Source: Bdellovibrionales bacterium
GTDB taxonomy: Bacteria; Bdellovibrionota; Bdellovibrionia; Bdellovibrionales; JAMPXM01
Length of the DNA: 64,000 nucleotides
NCBI GenBank assembly: GCA_043739185.1
Contig: JAYUEN010000387.1
Span: forward strand, 15,297-79,296
Direction: 5' to 3'
Part shown: positions 1,162 through 22,238 of the stretch, in pieces
Layout of the letters: each line of letters starts with the position of its first letter
Position numbering within the stretch: the stretch's first letter is position 1
The notes under the pieces: model-generated
The model's input: only the letters and a program-made list of their open reading frames with translations
What the model was told of the DNA's origin: nothing
The model's database searches: none
Program-made: the position numbers and the translations under genes

Positions 1162-2013
1162 TCAATGGCAGACCAAATTTAAAGTTTCAGCGTTCAGCGC
1201 GTTTTCACGCGCGATATTACAAGCCTTTGAGCTCAAGCTTGCCATGACATCCCAGTTTGAAAAAATATTAGAAGCCTTACCCTTTACCACAGCAGCCAAA
1301 TAATCATGATTTTGAAAGCGAATATAAACTGGGCTGCCGCTATCGCCCTCTTCGACACGCGAAGTGGAGCGTGATTCGATCCAGCCACCACCATTATAAG
1401 AAAAACTATTTAAGACTGCTGAACGTTTAAAGTCGGTAGTATTGGTGTCCCAATAATTAATACTTACTATTTGAAATAGGGCTGAACTTAAATTCTGTTT
1501 TACTACCAACCAAATTTTTTGAGGAACTATATTTGCAAAAATAAAATTTGGCTCGAGCTCAAGTTTCTCATTGAGCAAGATGAGCGCAACGTCTTCTCCC
1601 GGTGGAATTTGGACTTTGACCCCTTGGCTTAATATTTTGTTTTGAAGATACTTTGACAAAATAAAGTGAGCCGAGAGGTCCTTCTTAAGATAGGGAACAA
1701 ATCCGATGCGAACCAATTTTCCGTCGATCTTGCGATTCACGTATTTGTAGGCGCCTACTTCAAGGTGTAGTCGATTTTTTGAAAGTGCTAAGCTTTCGGC
1801 AAGGCAATGCGCAGCGGTTATCAATACTTGGTTTGAAAGAAGAGTGGCATTGCAGTAGCCATTCACCTCGTCTCCGTTATCACCCAGTACAATTGCGCTT
1901 ATCAAAACATTATTTTGAAAACTGGGCTCTTCGTTTGCCGTAGAGTTTGTAAGGGCTTTTGCATGGATTGAGAGGAAGATTACTAGGGGAATTAGTTTAA
2001 GCAAGAATCGCAT
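1162..2013 (-). CDS. Secreted trypsin-like (S1) serine protease
   Basis: Signal peptide; CNATLL, TAAHC (His), EDVALI (Asp), GDSGSP (Ser). Confidence 0.9.
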   Translation of the reverse strand: MRFLLKLIPLVIFLSIHAKALTNSTANEEPSFQNNVLISAIVLGDNGDEVNGYCNATLLSNQVLITAAHCLAESLALSKNRLHLEVGAYKYVNRKIDGKLVRIGFVPYLKKDLSAHFILSKYLQNKILSQGVKVQIPPGEDVALILLNEKLELEPNFIFANIVPQKIWLVVKQNLSSALFQIVSINYWDTNTTDFKRSAVLNSFSYNGGGWIESRSTSRVEEGDSGSPVYIRFQNHDYLAAVVKGKASNIFSNWDVMASLSSKACNIARENALNAETLNLVCH

Positions 2014-2125: not shown

Positions 2126-2605
2126 CTACTGAATGGCTAATACTTCGTATTCCAGAATTTTTTTAGCACTTTCAACCACCGCGATATCGCCAATTTTCAG
2201 ACCCAAAAGGGCTTCGCCCAATGGCGCATTTGGAGTGATGATTTGGATCGGCTGTGACTCTATTGTGAGTTGAATTCCGCCGCCCTTGGACATGAGAAAC
2301 ACCCAGCTCCTTTTACCCTCAAATTCAACTTCAATCAGCGCCGTAGATGAGATCGCTTCGGTACTCTTGAAATTCTTGATTTCAATATTTTTAAAAACAA
2401 ACAATAATTCTTCAATTTCGCCTACACGTTTTGCCTGTGCTCCAGCCAAATAGGATGCTTCGAGGGCTCTCGTATCATATTCATTTTCGGGCTTACTTTC
2501 TTCATTGGTTGCGGCATCATAAGTCGCTCGGGCCGCGTCTTGTAGGACCTTAAGGTCAAGCTCGAGCTTTTCACAAATTGCACTTATGATTTTTTGCTTA
2601 TTCAA
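2126..2605 (-). CDS. GreA/GreB-family elongation factor-like protein
   Basis: N-terminal coiled coil with ENEYDTRALEASYLA; C-terminal ITPNAPLGEALLGLKIGD typical of the GreA C-terminal domain. Confidence 0.8.
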   Translation of the reverse strand: MNKQKIISAICEKLELDLKVLQDAARATYDAATNEESKPENEYDTRALEASYLAGAQAKRVGEIEELLFVFKNIEIKNFKSTEAISSTALIEVEFEGKRSWVFLMSKGGGIQLTIESQPIQIITPNAPLGEALLGLKIGDIAVVESAKKILEYEVLAIQ

Positions 2606-2632: not shown

Positions 2633-4090
2633 CTATTTAAACAATAATTGGCAAGAATTAGAAACAATAAATGAAGTCCTCGACCAAGGCATTTTTAATG
2701 GAGTCTTAGGTGCGAATTTGTGCTCCCAAAACTCAAGCATTGCTTTGCCATTTTGCTCCATTATTGCATCAACCGGAATAGGTCCCATATCAACTAAATA
2801 AGCAGTGCCGTCTCGAACCACAATATTGTCAGGAGCAATATCCAGTTTTATCAAACTCAAATTTGCCATCGCCAAAGCTTTGGAATGCAAATCAAGCACG
2901 GACTTCGCAACTCCTGCATCTAAATGGTCATGGGTTTTTATATAAGCCTCAAGGCTTGGTCCCTTAATGTATTCGCTTAATATCCATTGTCCCTCGGGGT
3001 CAAAAGCCAATATCTCAGGGCTATCAATTTGAAATTTCATCTTTGCCCAATGTTGTACGTTGACAATTCTTTTATTGGTTTCGCGACCCTTTTTATTGCG
3101 TGCCATTTTGATCGCAATTTCAACGCCATTTTTTTCAATTACAAATACATCGGCTTCAAGTCCACTGCCTAAATATTTTTTAACCGGAAAAATCTCCTCG
3201 CCGATTTTGACCGTCATTAAATTCTTGTGACGCTTTAATTTGACGACCATTGCCTTTGTATTTTCAAAGAGGCCGATGGATTTCAACATAGAAATTGCCT
3301 TTCGAGAGGTCCAATTTTTCAATCCAGACAAGGGTGTCGCATGATTATTGTCGAGAGTGTCGAGATACAATCCGCGGCCTAAAATGACCTCAATGCTACT
3401 CGGAGCAATTAGTTTTGAAAGTTCGCTCAATTTGAATTGAATTTCTGGTGAAGTTCGATCGGCGAAATATAAGTCAAGATTATGGTGAATATAGCTTCGC
3501 GCTTTTGAGGATGAAATTCCAGCAGGTCCTTCGGGCATAAGGTGCACATTTCGAGCCGCCAAATTTCTTGGGAGATGATAATTTTCGGCATGATCGCGGG
3601 GAACGACCAGAGTCTCATCAGGGTGAATGAGAAAAAGTAAATAAGGAAGCGAACTTTCGGCCACATCTTGGCCAACAACGAGGTCTATTTGTACGTTCGG
3701 ATTGATTTCGCGAATTTTTTTGTAGAAGGCATTAAATGGATTGAATCCCTGAGATAGGGCGGCCCATTCGCCATCGAGAGGATAAGTCAAATTGGGATGC
3801 CGATTTAGTGCGGCGTCGATCAGTTGAACTCTTACCTCAAATGGTTGTGGCTTTTTATGAACGGGGCTACCAGTTGGCAAAATGATCACTAAATCTGCGC
3901 CAGAGGCCTTTAAAGAAATTTCAGCAGTTTCAATATGGCCAAGACTTACGGGATCGTAAGTGCCTGGCATAATAAGAATTTTTTTTGCAGATTTAATTTT
4001 CTCATAATCAAGAGGTACGCCAAAGCTCAATGAACTAAATCCGAGAAAACATACGAGTAGGCTAGCTAAAAAAAATCCGAATGACTTCAT
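2633..4090 (-). CDS. Signal-peptide protein fusing a NadD-like nucleotidyltransferase domain to an atypical protein-kinase-like domain
   Basis: Signal peptide MKSFGFFLASLLVCFLGFSSLSFG. Adenylyltransferase motifs GTYDPVSLGH, PVHK, ISSSKAR. Kinase motifs LGSGLEADVF, IAIK, LDIAPDNIVV, LVDMG. Ends SCQLLFK. Confidence 0.75.
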   Translation of the reverse strand: MKSFGFFLASLLVCFLGFSSLSFGVPLDYEKIKSAKKILIMPGTYDPVSLGHIETAEISLKASGADLVIILPTGSPVHKKPQPFEVRVQLIDAALNRHPNLTYPLDGEWAALSQGFNPFNAFYKKIREINPNVQIDLVVGQDVAESSLPYLLFLIHPDETLVVPRDHAENYHLPRNLAARNVHLMPEGPAGISSSKARSYIHHNLDLYFADRTSPEIQFKLSELSKLIAPSSIEVILGRGLYLDTLDNNHATPLSGLKNWTSRKAISMLKSIGLFENTKAMVVKLKRHKNLMTVKIGEEIFPVKKYLGSGLEADVFVIEKNGVEIAIKMARNKKGRETNKRIVNVQHWAKMKFQIDSPEILAFDPEGQWILSEYIKGPSLEAYIKTHDHLDAGVAKSVLDLHSKALAMANLSLIKLDIAPDNIVVRDGTAYLVDMGPIPVDAIMEQNGKAMLEFWEHKFAPKTPLKMPWSRTSFIVSNSCQLLFK

Positions 4091-20555: not shown

Positions 20556-20675
20556 CAGGTAGCTCTCGACCCATAAAAAAACTGTGTAACTTCGTTACAG
20601 ATCTTGAATTAAGTGACAATTCTTGACATCGAAGCTGCGCAATTTGGGTCTAAAATCAATTGGAGGACTTTCCGT

Positions 20676-22238
20676 ATGGTGTTTTCGCAGCAACAATTAA
20701 GACTAGTTCAATTCACGTTTGCAATTGTTCTCTCCTCTAGCTTGGGTGTGAGCATGGCCTTCGCTGGCGGCGACCAATGCGAAAGCATCTTTGTTTCTAC
20801 AAAGAGCAAAAGACAAATTGGCGTGAGCGAAGATTTTGTTGCCAAAATGCAGTCTCGTAGGCGCTCTGCTGCAGACAAAATGTTACAAAAATTTACCACG
20901 GAGAAGGGTCTTGCAGCACCCATGAACACGAGCCCCAAACATGACAATAACTATAGTTTCGAACTCCCGGAAGGTACTATAAAGGATCAGCAAAGGTCAG
21001 GCCGTTGTTGGATATTTGCTTCTCTCACGGCCATTGAAAATTTTTATTTAGGCAAAGGCAATTTAATGCCAGACGCCGAGTTTTCAAGAACCTATCTGCA
21101 ATTTTTTAATATGCTCGAGCGTTCAAGCTCGCATTTAGAAAAGGTAATTGATTTAAGAAGAAACTCACAGCGCATTAGCAGCTCTACAATCTTACAAAGG
21201 ATTGCACCTAAGATCGCGGACGGTGGCTATGTTGAAGATATTATCTTTTTAATTAAGAAATACGGCTTGGTCACCACAAGTGCAATGCCCGAAACTCTTA
21301 ATTCATTGAACACCGACCTATTGTTGGCTGAATTGAATTCTTATTTACAAGTTAAAAGTTATGAGATGTGGAATTTGTCTGAAAACTTCGACTCAGAGGC
21401 GCGTGCACTTCATGATCGTATCGTGAGGGGTCAGGCTGAAAACACCACAAAATATGATAAGGTGAGTTTGCAGGCCCTAAGCGAAGCTCAATTGCAAATA
21501 TTAGAAGCGAAAAAGGAAGAGATATTAGGCGGAGTCTGGTTGATTCTTGAAAAAGCTCTGGGAACACCGCCGAAAACATTCACCGCTAAAGTACCAGTGA
21601 CCAATCCCAAGACGGGCGTTGCTCAAACTAAAATTCGCAAATTTGAGCCGCAAAAATTTGTGACCGACTATATGAAATTTAATCCTGAGGATTGGATCAA
21701 TGTTTCTAATTTGAGAAATCGTCCTCGTGATCAAGTTTATCAAGTTAAATACCAAGACATGAACCGTGTGATACGAAGACTCAATTTAGATCCGGTACGA
21801 ATGATGAATTTGGTGAAAGCACAATTAAAAGCGGGTATGCCAGTACCGTTCGATTCGAACTTTGGCCCAGGAGTCAATCGCAAGACAGGTGATATGGAGC
21901 CTGGAACCGATGACTTAAAGGGAATGTTTCCTTATAAACAAGGCCAAGCGCCTAGGCGCTTGAGTAAATCAGAATTGGATATTTTAGGAATTTTAACCGC
22001 TGATCACGAAACGGTTTTCATGGGATATGATCAACCAGAAGGATATGCGAATCCAATAAAGTTCAAGGTTGAAAATTCATGGAGTGATCAATATGGCAAC
22101 GGCGGGAACTTCAACCTATCGGCGCAATGGTTTGATTTGTATGTAGACGGGATTATGATTCATAAATCAATGCTATCTCCAGAGGAGCTTGCGATTTTCA
22201 ATGGCAAGCCTATCATTTTAAAAGCAACTAATGAGTGA
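20676..22238 (+). CDS. C1B-family cysteine aminopeptidase (PepC/bleomycin hydrolase-like) with signal peptide
   Basis: DQQRSGRCWIFAS (Gln, Cys), ADHETVFMG (His), KVENSWS (Asn). SD GGAGGA before ATG 20676; signal peptide ending MAFA. Confidence 0.88.
   Translation: MVFSQQQLRLVQFTFAIVLSSSLGVSMAFAGGDQCESIFVSTKSKRQIGVSEDFVAKMQSRRRSAADKMLQKFTTEKGLAAPMNTSPKHDNNYSFELPEGTIKDQQRSGRCWIFASLTAIENFYLGKGNLMPDAEFSRTYLQFFNMLERSSSHLEKVIDLRRNSQRISSSTILQRIAPKIADGGYVEDIIFLIKKYGLVTTSAMPETLNSLNTDLLLAELNSYLQVKSYEMWNLSENFDSEARALHDRIVRGQAENTTKYDKVSLQALSEAQLQILEAKKEEILGGVWLILEKALGTPPKTFTAKVPVTNPKTGVAQTKIRKFEPQKFVTDYMKFNPEDWINVSNLRNRPRDQVYQVKYQDMNRVIRRLNLDPVRMMNLVKAQLKAGMPVPFDSNFGPGVNRKTGDMEPGTDDLKGMFPYKQGQAPRRLSKSELDILGILTADHETVFMGYDQPEGYANPIKFKVENSWSDQYGNGGNFNLSAQWFDLYVDGIMIHKSMLSPEELAIFNGKPIILKATNE

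What the first reader, a model, noticed from the sequence alone, without database searches (positions are those of the whole stretch)
2633..4090. Secreted NadD-like adenylyltransferase fused to an atypical kinase
Signal peptide, then a nucleotidyltransferase domain with an altered HxGH motif (SLGH) but retained PxHK and ISSS motifs. A kinase-like domain follows with a Gly loop, IAIK Lys, D-x4-N catalytic loop, DMG and a very short C-lobe. Two ATP-using domains on one exported chain is an architecture I do not recognise. Inference: an effector that adenylylates and phosphorylates a host metabolite (e.g. NAD pathway) or protein.
Basis: partly seen in the sequence, partly recalled or inferred. 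Interest (0 to 1): 0.72.

Follow-up and report, generated by a model that had tools for sequence, protein, structure and literature searches.

The report
Exported NadD-like enzyme fused to half-kinase
A bacterium reported to be of predatory type (Bdellovibrionales) exports a protein that joins an NAD-synthesis-type adenylyltransferase to a truncated protein kinase and ends in a single-cysteine tag; two ATP-using enzymes outside the cell suggest action on prey, but no function has been tested.

Summary
Window 2633-4090 (minus strand) encodes a 485-aa protein with four parts:
- a cleavable Sec-type signal peptide (residues 1-24);
- a complete NadD-like nucleotidyltransferase (36-243);
- a helical linker (244-292);
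- a Hanks-type kinase cut off just after the DFG-equivalent (293-462).

The "altered HxGH" motif (SLGH) is the normal T/HxGH variant. Every residue shown by mutagenesis to matter in E. coli NadD has a counterpart here. NadD's SYTxDT loop and Trp/Tyr pair, which I recall as the pyridine-recognition elements, are absent. The kinase keeps the Gly loop, the Lys, the catalytic Asp/Asn and the metal-binding Asp. It lacks the alpha-C Glu and everything after the DFG-equivalent.

With 38 relatives, AlphaFold gives one compact body (pLDDT 89.8, pTM 0.85). The genome has separate housekeeping NadD and CoaD genes. The architecture defines an undescribed family of about 59 clusters, found in 11 of 401 genomes of the phylum, with no conserved neighbours.

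The disordered tail ends in CQLLFK. That Cys is 94% conserved and is usually the only Cys in the mature chain. The same C-x-x-[LIV]-F motif sits at an end of about 50 exported proteins in this genome.

Best reading: a catalytically competent exported enzyme that uses prey ATP. Its substrates are unknown.

The parts
2633..4090 (-). Whole ORF, 485 aa plus stop (P0001)
   Evidence: ATG start with AAGG 10 nt upstream.
4019..4090 (-). Sec-type signal peptide, residues 1-24 (MKSFGFFLASLLVCFLGFSSLSFG), predicted cut SFG|VPL
   Evidence: Read from the sequence. The position of the AxA-type site is conserved across the family. There is no twin-arginine motif and no lipobox.
3362..3985 (-). NadD-like nucleotidyltransferase domain, residues 36-243
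   Evidence: Pfam PF01467 at 8e-9. Profile against NadD structures at 1.4e-21. Foldseek NadD TM 0.75-0.80. pLDDT about 85-97.
3935..3964 (-). T/HxGH ATP-binding motif, GTYDPVSLGH (T44, D46, H52)
   Evidence: Equivalent to T11, D13 and H19 of E. coli NadD (PMC1249556).
3854..3877 (-). PTGSPVHK loop (H78, K79), the NadD PPH(K/R) motif
   Evidence: Equivalent to H45 and R46 of E. coli NadD. P72 is conserved at 100% and K79 at 80%.
3665..3673 (-). GQD motif (D142, equivalent to NadD D109)
3497..3517 (-). ISSSKAR, the ISSTxxR motif of NadD/PPAT
   Evidence: S193 is conserved at 82%, S194 at 80% and R198 at 88%.
3365..3385 (-). ILGRGLY, equivalent to the C-terminal YIxxxxLY end of canonical NadD
   Evidence: I236 and G240 are conserved at 94% and Y242 at 96%. 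Canonical NadD representatives end at this LY.
3215..3361 (-). Helical linker, residues 244-292 (helices 253-271 and 275-286)
   Evidence: AlphaFold model
2705..3214 (-). Truncated Hanks-type kinase domain, residues 293-462 (subdomains I-VII plus one helix)
   Evidence: Pfam PF00069 at 1e-4, below the gathering score. Profile against eukaryotic-type kinases at about 1e-9. Foldseek hits TTK and PknB. pLDDT 93-98.
3143..3172 (-). Glycine-rich loop, LGSGLEADVF
   Evidence: G308 is conserved at 76% and G310 at 92%.
3107..3115 (-). AIK, the beta-3 lysine K328
   Evidence: K328 is conserved at 96%.
2825..2845 (-). Catalytic loop LDIAPDN (D417, D421, N422)
   Evidence: D417 is conserved at 92% and N422 at 96%.
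2783..2791 (-). DMG, the DFG-equivalent metal-binding Asp (D434)
   Evidence: D434 is conserved at 92% and G436 at 86%.
2636..2704 (-). Flexible C-terminal tail, residues 463-485
   Evidence: pLDDT below 50 for residues 465-479 and 481-485 in both models.
2636..2653 (-). Terminal tag CQLLFK. C480 is the only cysteine of the mature chain.
   Evidence: C480 is conserved at 94% in 50 representatives. The mature chain has a single Cys in 33 of 45 members and an odd number in 42 of 45. The same motif is enriched at protein ends across the genome.

Best explanation
The gene encodes a Sec-exported, catalytically competent two-enzyme protein.

Steps shown or directly supported by sequence and model:
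1. The signal peptide is removed at SFG|VPL.
2. The mature chain folds into one compact body.
3. The NadD-derived domain keeps the full ATP-binding and catalytic set.
4. The kinase is a Hanks-type kinase cut off after its metal-binding Asp, with an intact nucleotide-binding and phosphotransfer core.

Steps inferred:
1. As I understand it, the periplasm of a Gram-negative cell holds little or no ATP. The protein therefore most likely works outside the producer, in or next to a prey cell, and uses prey ATP.
2. The nucleotidyltransferase domain transfers AMP from ATP to the phosphate of a small acceptor that resembles a mononucleotide. This could be NMN/NaMN-like but with a different 'base' pocket. 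It does not adenylylate proteins.
3. The kinase domain transfers phosphate, or merely hydrolyses ATP as other minimal kinases do. Its target is unknown and is not necessarily the product of the first domain.
4. The flexible C-terminal tail with its lone cysteine (CQLLFK) is a tag shared with other exported proteins of this genome. It most likely tethers or sorts the protein through that thiol.
For: Export:
- The signal peptide and an AxA-type site directly before the conserved PL(T/S) are present across the family.
- In B. bacteriovorus a Sec signal peptide alone sends a reporter out of the cell (PMC12622784).

Nucleotidyltransferase competence:
- T44, D46, H52, H78, K79 and D142 match the mutationally defined E. 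coli NadD residues T11, D13, H19, H45, R46 and D109.
- Family conservation is G43 96%, D46 96%, P72 100%, R87 100% and R198 88%.

Kinase competence:
- G310 92%, K328 96%, D417 92%, N422 96%, D434 92%.

Fold:
- The model has pLDDT 89.8 and pTM 0.85.

Not a housekeeping gene:
- Canonical NadD, CoaD and an RfaE2-like gene lie elsewhere in the genome.
- The family is patchy, in 11 of 401 genomes of the phylum, with no conserved neighbours.

The two domains are separable:
- About 12 of 50 representatives have a degenerate nucleotidyltransferase with an intact kinase, and about 5 the reverse.
- Stand-alone exported forms of each domain exist.

Tag:
-.
- Other tagged exported proteins include ATP-dependent types: a circularly permuted ATP-grasp and a second kinase-like protein. 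An AAA_2 ATPase also carries the tag, but its N-terminus is cut by the contig end, so its export is unknown.
Against: - No activity, localisation or expression data exist. The gene is seen only in DNA from sediment metagenomes.
- The canonical alpha-C Glu is absent (position 346 is Q or H), and the whole substrate-binding half of a protein kinase is missing. The kinase may therefore be only an ATPase or a nucleotide-binding module.
- NadD's SYTxDT loop and Trp/Tyr pair are not conserved, and H78 is kept in only 50% of the family. The acceptor is therefore unknown.
- The Sec pathway reaches only the periplasm. Any further secretion or entry into prey is inferred.
- I did not verify the predatory lifestyle or the taxon name. 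Both come from earlier unchecked notes.
Confidence: 0.5

Rival explanations
1. Coupled two-step synthase. The two domains act one after the other on a single small molecule, as in NadR, RibF, HldE, CoA synthase (PPAT plus dephospho-CoA kinase) or PAPS synthase. One route is kinase then adenylyl transfer. The other is adenylyl transfer followed by phosphorylation of the new ribose, giving an NADP- or CoA-like product made outside the cell.
For: - From my own knowledge of these enzyme families, not checked here, every described fusion of a HIGH-type nucleotidyltransferase with a kinase couples consecutive steps.
- The two domains pack rigidly (pTM 0.85).
- Both catalytic sets are intact in about two thirds of the representatives.
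Against: - Either domain degenerates independently in about 17 of 50 representatives.
- Each domain also occurs alone, with its own signal peptide and tag.
- The kinase fold here is eukaryotic-type, unlike all the precedents.
Confidence: 0.2
2. One reading: a prey-directed effector that AMPylates and phosphorylates prey proteins.
For: - The protein is exported and both active sites are intact.
- The kinase descends from Hanks-type protein kinases.
Against: - To my knowledge, protein AMPylation is carried out by Fic, GlnE-type or SelO folds and not by T/HxGH nucleotidyltransferases.
- The kinase lacks the activation segment, the P+1 loop and helices F to I that bind protein substrates.
Confidence: 0.12
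3. An envelope enzyme of the producer itself. It stays in the producer's periplasm or on its surface, held by the Cys tag, and salvages or modifies nucleotides or envelope components. It could, for example, run the NadD reaction in reverse (dinucleotide plus PPi gives mononucleotide plus ATP).
For: - A Sec signal alone implies only the periplasm.
- The lone-Cys tag could act as a tether.
- From my knowledge of NadD enzymology, the reaction is reversible.
Against: - As I understand it, the periplasm has no established source of ATP or PPi.
- The patchy accessory distribution does not fit a core envelope function.
Confidence: 0.12
4. The N-terminus is an uncleaved membrane anchor, or the protein is a pseudoenzyme scaffold with no catalysis.
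For: - The h-region is fairly long at 15 residues.
- The alpha-C Glu is missing, and the first motif position is Ser rather than His or Thr.
Against: - The AxA-type site sits at a fixed distance from the mature domain across very divergent sequences.
- The Cys count in the mature chain is odd or one, and the tag is shared with other signal-peptide proteins.
- Catalytic residues are 76-100% conserved, while clearly degenerate sub-clades exist for contrast.
Confidence: 0.06

Closest known systems
NadD, bacterial nicotinate-mononucleotide adenylyltransferase (TIGR00482; structures 5DB4, 8AIH, 1KAM, 1K4K)
   Same: - Same fold, Foldseek TM 0.75-0.80 normalised to target length.
- Profile E-value 1.4e-21.
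- Shares T/HxGH, PxxxPxH(K/R), the R87 column, GxD, ISSTxxR and the terminal ...GLY.
   Different: - Exported, and fused to a kinase and a Cys tag.
- Scores 43 bits against a curated cut-off of 112.
- The SYTxDT loop and Trp/Tyr pair are absent.
- The genome has a separate canonical NadD.
PPAT/CoaD, phosphopantetheine adenylyltransferase
   Same: - Shares the PGT(F/Y)DPxTxGH form of the first motif, with T or S rather than H, and ISS(S/T).
- Profile E-value 4e-12.
   Different: - The match covers only the first 90 or so residues.
- The TIGR01510 score is 17 against a cut-off of 103.
- The PxHK loop and the GLY end are NadD-type features.
Minimal kinases Bud32/PRPK and RIO
   Same: - Small eukaryotic-type kinases with no activation segment and no substrate-binding helices.
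- Weak HMM hits at 4.5e-7.
- From my own knowledge, they often act as ATPases.
   Different: - Far below the curated cut-off (29.5 against 125 bits).
- The best sequence and fold matches are Hanks-type kinases such as StkP, PknB and TTK.
- No alpha-C Glu.
- Exported.
Bifunctional HIGH-type nucleotidyltransferase plus kinase enzymes: NadR, RibF, HldE, CoA synthase, PAPS synthase (known to me from the literature, not searched here)
   Same: One chain carries a T/HxGH-type adenylyltransferase and a kinase, both using ATP.
   Different: - To my knowledge, all are cytoplasmic.
- To my knowledge, their kinase domains are P-loop, ribokinase-type or RibF-type, never eukaryotic-type.
- The order of reactions on one substrate is established for those enzymes and untested here.

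Membership tests
NadD (NaMN adenylyltransferase) | T/HxGH ATP-binding motif with the essential second His | tested here: met
   S49-L-G-H52. H52 is conserved at 76% across the family. The role of E. coli H19 is described in PMC1249556.
NadD (NaMN adenylyltransferase) | PPH(K/R) loop, GxD Asp and ISSTxxR | tested here: met
   SPVH78K79, GQD142 and ISSSKAR198
NadD (NaMN adenylyltransferase) | SYTxDT loop and Trp/Tyr pair after the GxD (I recall these as the pyridine-nucleotide recognition elements) | tested here: not met
   In the alignment to 1KAM, 8AIH and 5DB4 the family has no conserved counterparts.
NadD (NaMN adenylyltransferase) | Curated equivalog score (TIGR00482, 112.45 bits) | tested here: not met
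   43.1 bits
NadD (NaMN adenylyltransferase) | Forms NaAD or NAD from NaMN or NMN plus ATP | not testable with these tools
   An enzyme assay is needed.
Hanks-type (eukaryotic-like) protein kinase, Pfam PF00069 | Gly-rich loop, beta-3 Lys, catalytic Asp and Asn, DFG Asp | tested here: met
   LGSGLEADVF, K328, D417, N422 and D434, each 76-96% conserved
Hanks-type (eukaryotic-like) protein kinase, Pfam PF00069 | Alpha-C Glu, HRD His-Arg, activation segment/APE, subdomains VIII-XI | tested here: not met
   Position 346 is Q or H. The loop reads KLD rather than HRD. Only one helix follows the DMG.
Hanks-type (eukaryotic-like) protein kinase, Pfam PF00069 | Pfam gathering score (31.7 bits) | tested here: not met
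   22 bits. Homology is nevertheless supported by the profile (about 1e-9) and the fold.
Bud32 / RIO minimal kinases | Curated model score (TIGR03724, 125 bits) | tested here: not met
   29.5 bits
Sec/SPase I secretory proteins | Basic n-region, h-region of 7-15 residues, small residues at -3 and -1, no lipobox and no twin-arginine motif | tested here: met
   Sequence of residues 1-24. The site position is conserved in relatives. Cleavage itself is not testable here.
Bifunctional nucleotidyltransferase-kinase cofactor synthases (NadR, RibF, HldE, COASY, PAPSS) | Consecutive reactions on one substrate by the two domains | not testable with these tools
   Independent degeneration of either domain in about 17 of 50 representatives argues against obligatory coupling.
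PD-T4-6 anti-phage kinase (PADLOC) | Full-length match to the defence kinase models | tested here: not met
   Only generic matches over the kinase core, residues 301-436 against models of 292-564 positions, best 1.2e-10.

The most novel reading that the evidence does not exclude
The protein is one cargo of an undescribed delivery or tethering system of Bdellovibrionota. In this system, Sec-exported enzymes of normally cytoplasmic, cofactor-dependent types carry a terminal lone-cysteine tag, C-x-x-[LIV]-F, at either end of the mature chain. The cargo types seen are a NadD-like transferase, kinases, an ATP-grasp enzyme, topoisomerase IB and a fused ethanolamine ammonia-lyase.

The free thiol would link the cargo by a disulfide to a carrier or to the envelope. 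The cargo would be released on reaching the reducing, ATP-containing cytoplasm of the prey.
Probability: 0.15. Interest if true: 0.9.

Novelty: new variant of a known kind. Interest (0 to 1): 0.66.

Why it matters
Enzymes that need ATP are not expected outside the bacterial cytoplasm. This finding is a conserved family of exported proteins with two intact ATP-using sites. It sits beside other exported ATP- or cofactor-dependent enzymes that share a terminal single-cysteine motif.

- It points to a set of enzymes that a predatory-type bacterium may place into or next to its prey.
- It gives concrete handles for testing how such proteins are sorted: the tag, its cysteine and the signal peptide.
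- It extends the known partners of NadD-type transferases to a eukaryotic-like kinase.
- It provides a natural 'half-kinase' whose missing lobe appears to be replaced by another domain.

Tried and rejected
- Word-index protein searches found only 5 relatives. The exhaustive profile search was needed to see the family.
- The genome contigs pattern scan returned only ordinary CoaD and NadD genes and no orthologues.
- Gene neighbourhood. There are no shared neighbours among 16 loci. I dismissed as coincidence the CDP-diacylglycerol pyrophosphatase next to P0003 and the APH/SrkA-type kinase next to the G018 orthologue.
- The first AlphaFold run, with 5 sequences, left the kinase unresolved (pLDDT 61). 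It was replaced by the 38-sequence run.
- PADLOC gave only generic kinase similarity to PD-T4-6 and mad6, so an anti-phage defence role was rejected.
- A housekeeping NadD or CoaD role was rejected.
- A lipoprotein reading was rejected. LLVC inside the signal peptide is not a lipobox and is not conserved. The residues before the tag Cys in N-tagged proteins are D, E, T, Q, R or M.
- Clustering of tagged genes into islands is weak: 9 observed against 4.2 +/- 2.7 in shuffles. I make no claim from it.
- Five literature searches were run. Four, aimed at the architecture or the tag, found no description of either. The fifth served only to find the NadD mutagenesis paper.
- Notes of this scan held nothing by sequence.
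- No RNA runs hold the gene.
- I did not independently verify the taxon name (Bdellovibrionales).
Full report
**1. The observation**

The ORF lies exactly where stated, on the minus strand (2633-4090, 485 aa, P0001). It starts at an ATG with AAGG 10 nt upstream. GC content is even across the window, about 41%.

Pfam finds CTP_transf_like at residues 40-198 (8e-9, above its threshold). It also finds Pkinase at 303-436 (1e-4, below threshold). NCBIfam gives weak NadD hits (TIGR00482, 43 bits against a cut-off of 112) and weak Bud32 hits (29.5 against 125). PDB sequences give StkP kinase at 2e-7, NadD at 5e-5 and PPAT at 1e-4.

**2. The family**

The word-index search found only four relatives. 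The exhaustive profile search found 59 representatives of 50%-identity clusters at E<1e-30. Most are 400-500 aa and match over the whole length.

None carries a functional name. The only label any source gives is JGI's generic 'cytidyltransferase-like protein' for P0003. All come from metagenomes or metagenome-assembled genomes.

Within the window's phylum the family occurs in 11 of 401 genomes, spread over several families. Among 41 close relatives it occurs in only 2, counting the window's own genome. Sixteen loci share no neighbouring gene. It is therefore a stand-alone accessory gene.

Earlier notes of this scan call the genome an uncultured Bdellovibrionales. I did not verify the name. 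The gene is present in four sediment metagenome runs of one study.

**3. Export**

The N-terminus (MKSFGFFLASLLVCFLGFSSLSFG|VPL) has a basic n-region, a 15-residue h-region and small residues at -3 and -1. It has no twin-arginine motif and no lipobox.

In nearly every full-length representative an AxA-type site sits directly before the first conserved mature residues, (K/V/A/R)PL(T/S). Examples are TQA|RPL, VQA|..., VHA|KPL, GLA|KPL and ARA|VPL. A cleavage site held at a fixed distance from the mature domain across sequences only 25-35% identical is strong evidence for a cleaved Sec signal. It argues against the anchor alternative.

In B. bacteriovorus a native Sec signal peptide alone is enough to release a reporter into the medium (PMC12622784).

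**4. The N-terminal domain**

A profile of 38 family members matches NadD structures at 1.4e-21 and PPAT at 4e-12. Foldseek puts NadD first, with TM 0.75-0.80 normalised to target length.

The alignment covers all of NadD, up to its terminal ...GLY. At that point canonical NadD proteins end.

The residues assigned to the E. coli NadD active site by mutagenesis are T11, D13, H19, H45, R46 and D109 (PMC1249556). They correspond here to T44, D46, H52, H78, K79 and D142. ISSSKAR matches ISSTxxR.

The 'altered' first motif (SLGH) falls within the superfamily's T/HxGH definition. The family has T in 64% and S in 16% of sequences at that position.

What is missing is NadD's SYTxDT loop and the Trp/Tyr pair after GxD. 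I recall these as the elements that recognise the pyridine nucleotide. H78 is kept in only half of the family. The ATP side of the site is therefore intact and the acceptor pocket has changed.

The genome has its own canonical genes: NadD (C506:77247-78296, with GGSFNPFHAGH, KSYSIET and the Trp), CoaD (C8:50249-50779) and an RfaE2-like gene.

**5. The C-terminal domain**

The best sequence and fold relatives are Hanks-type kinases: StkP, PknB and TTK.

Conserved features are the Gly loop (G310 92%), the beta-3 Lys (K328 96%), and the hinge (E373 and G377, the latter 96% in the 50-sequence alignment and invariant in the 38-sequence one). Also conserved are the catalytic loop LDxxxDN (D417 92%, N422 96%) and DxG (D434 92%).

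Absent features are the alpha-C Glu (position 346 is Q or H, next to a conserved W348), the His-Arg of HRD and the Lys of the catalytic loop. Everything after the DFG-equivalent is also missing apart from one helix (448-459, with conserved W455). It is a 'half-kinase', as small as Bud32 or RIO.

**6. The whole protein**

With five sequences AlphaFold resolved only the N-domain (pLDDT 61). With 38 it gave pLDDT 89.8 and pTM 0.85. This points to one compact body in which linker helices (253-286) lie between the domains. I could not inspect the coordinates, so the idea that the NadD domain and linker stand in for the missing kinase lobe is an inference. Only the signal-peptide junction and residues 465-485 have low confidence.

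**7. Are both sites alive, and are they coupled?**

I tabulated the motifs in 50 full-length representatives:
- about 33 have both sets intact, including this protein;
- about 12 have a clearly degenerate nucleotidyltransferase (GH changed to xD, K79, GxD and SS lost) with an intact kinase;
- about 5 show the reverse.

Each domain also occurs alone with its own signal peptide, for example P0054 and P0046. The NadD-like domain also occurs with other C-terminal partners.

Clearly dead versions therefore exist for contrast, which makes the intact version here likely to be active. The pattern also shows that the two activities are separable. That weakens, but does not exclude, a coupled two-step reaction of the NadR, RibF, HldE, CoA-synthase or PAPS-synthase kind.

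**8. The tail**

C480 is conserved in 94% of representatives. In 33 of 45 members it is the only cysteine of the mature chain. In 42 of 45 the cysteine count is odd.

Stand-alone exported NadD-like proteins (225-275 aa, with HxGH or TxGH) carry the same lone Cys in a short extension after ...LY. Cytoplasmic NadDs stop at LY.

I called 4203 ORFs in the genome myself. Among them, C-x-x-[LIV]-F lies with its Cys 5-7 residues from the C-terminus in 17 ORFs, against about 2 expected (Poisson p about 6e-11). It follows a signal-peptide cleavage site within a few residues in 33 ORFs. Permuted Cys motifs give 0-10.

Of 19 N-tagged proteins, 15 have that Cys as their only Cys. Among other signal-peptide proteins the figure is 14%.

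Tagged proteins with a family assignment include:
- an M48 peptidase;
- a metallophosphoesterase;
- a beta-helix protein;
- a PLD-type enzyme;
- a circularly permuted ATP-grasp enzyme;
- an AAA_2 ATPase, whose N-terminus is cut by the contig end;
- a second kinase-like protein (C506:20646-21854);
- the fused EutB-EutC in this window.

What the tag does is unknown. A lone, conserved thiol on a flexible end of an exported protein suggests an intermolecular disulfide or a covalent modification.

**9. Interpretation**

Shown or directly supported:
- the ORF is real;
- it is exported, by sequence criteria;
- the N-domain is NadD-derived with an intact catalytic set;
- the C-domain is a truncated Hanks-type kinase with an intact phosphotransfer core;
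- the fold is compact;
- the family is a rare accessory one;
- the tag is conserved.

Inferred:
- it acts where ATP is available, that is in or next to prey;
- the acceptor of the transferase is a small phosphate-bearing molecule rather than a protein;
- the kinase may be a small-substrate kinase or an ATPase;
- the tag sorts or tethers the protein.

I put 0.5 on this package. The rivals are a coupled synthase (0.2), a protein AMPylating and phosphorylating effector (0.12), a resident envelope enzyme (0.12), and an anchor or pseudoenzyme (0.06).

**10. Novelty**

Both domains belong to well-known superfamilies. The combination, its export and the tag were not found in four literature searches aimed at them or in the curated libraries. 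I rate it a new variant of a known kind.

The tag phenomenon, if it proves to be a sorting or delivery signal, would be categorically new. It lies beyond this finding and is untested.

Noticed in passing
whole genome G000; in the window: 2636-2653 (this gene), 20613-22238 (N-terminal tag ...aggdqCESIF), 38969-41293 (ends CIALFN): The motif C-x-x-[LIV]-F is enriched at the ends of exported proteins. There are 17 ORFs with it at the C-terminus (about 2 expected) and 33 with it just after a signal-peptide cleavage site (permuted motifs give 0-10). The Cys is usually the only one in the mature chain. This looks like a terminal tag of unknown function.
   Followed up: partly
G000 C506:20646-21854 (L039): A second exported kinase-like protein of 402 aa. 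It has a signal peptide, LGVGQGFGSRVF, VKISK, DLTPSN and VFDPG, and ends in CIALFN. It has no Pfam, NCBIfam or PADLOC hit and only a weak hit to the family's kinase profile (6e-4).
   Followed up: partly
G000 C401:8030-10453 (L038) and C240:17-1324 (L041): Two other tagged proteins of ATP-dependent types. One is a circularly permuted ATP-grasp enzyme with a signal peptide that ends in CEDLF. The other is an AAA_2 ATPase that ends in CKAIFSE. Its N-terminus is cut by the contig end, so whether it has a signal peptide is unknown.
   Followed up: partly
window 38969-41293 (+): One 774-aa chain carries EutB (1.8e-155) fused to EutC (2e-24), with an N-terminal hydrophobic signal-like segment and a C-terminal CIALFN. 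It would be an exported adenosylcobalamin enzyme.
   Followed up: partly
metagenome representatives P0086, P0089, P0105, P0107, P0110, P0123, P0139, P0144 and others: Stand-alone NadD-like proteins of 225-275 aa, several with a canonical HxGH. Each has a signal peptide and a short tail after ...LY that holds the only cysteine. Canonical NadDs (190-215 aa) lack both.
   Followed up: partly
family representatives P0015, P0017, P0035, P0037-P0040, P0043, P0045, P0052, P0053, P0057 versus P0019, P0044, P0047, P0056: Some sub-clades have lost the catalytic motifs of the nucleotidyltransferase while the kinase stays intact. A smaller group shows the reverse.
   Followed up: yes
window 2126-2605 (-): A GreA-like gene (weak match, 2e-6) starts at a TTG 27 nt after this gene's stop, with a strong GAAGGAG ribosome-binding site. 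It is probably co-transcribed. The pairing is not conserved in other loci.
   Followed up: partly
window 1162-2013 (-): A secreted trypsin-like serine protease. The TAAHC and GDSGSP motifs and a signal peptide are visible in the sequence. NCBIfam gives no hit.
   Followed up: no
P0049 (746 aa), P0122 (514 aa), L052 112-2355: The exported NadD-like domain is fused to other C-terminal partners instead of the kinase. These include a segment of about 500 residues with no Pfam match and a weak match to a permuted papain-like amidase (C92, 7e-4).
   Followed up: partly
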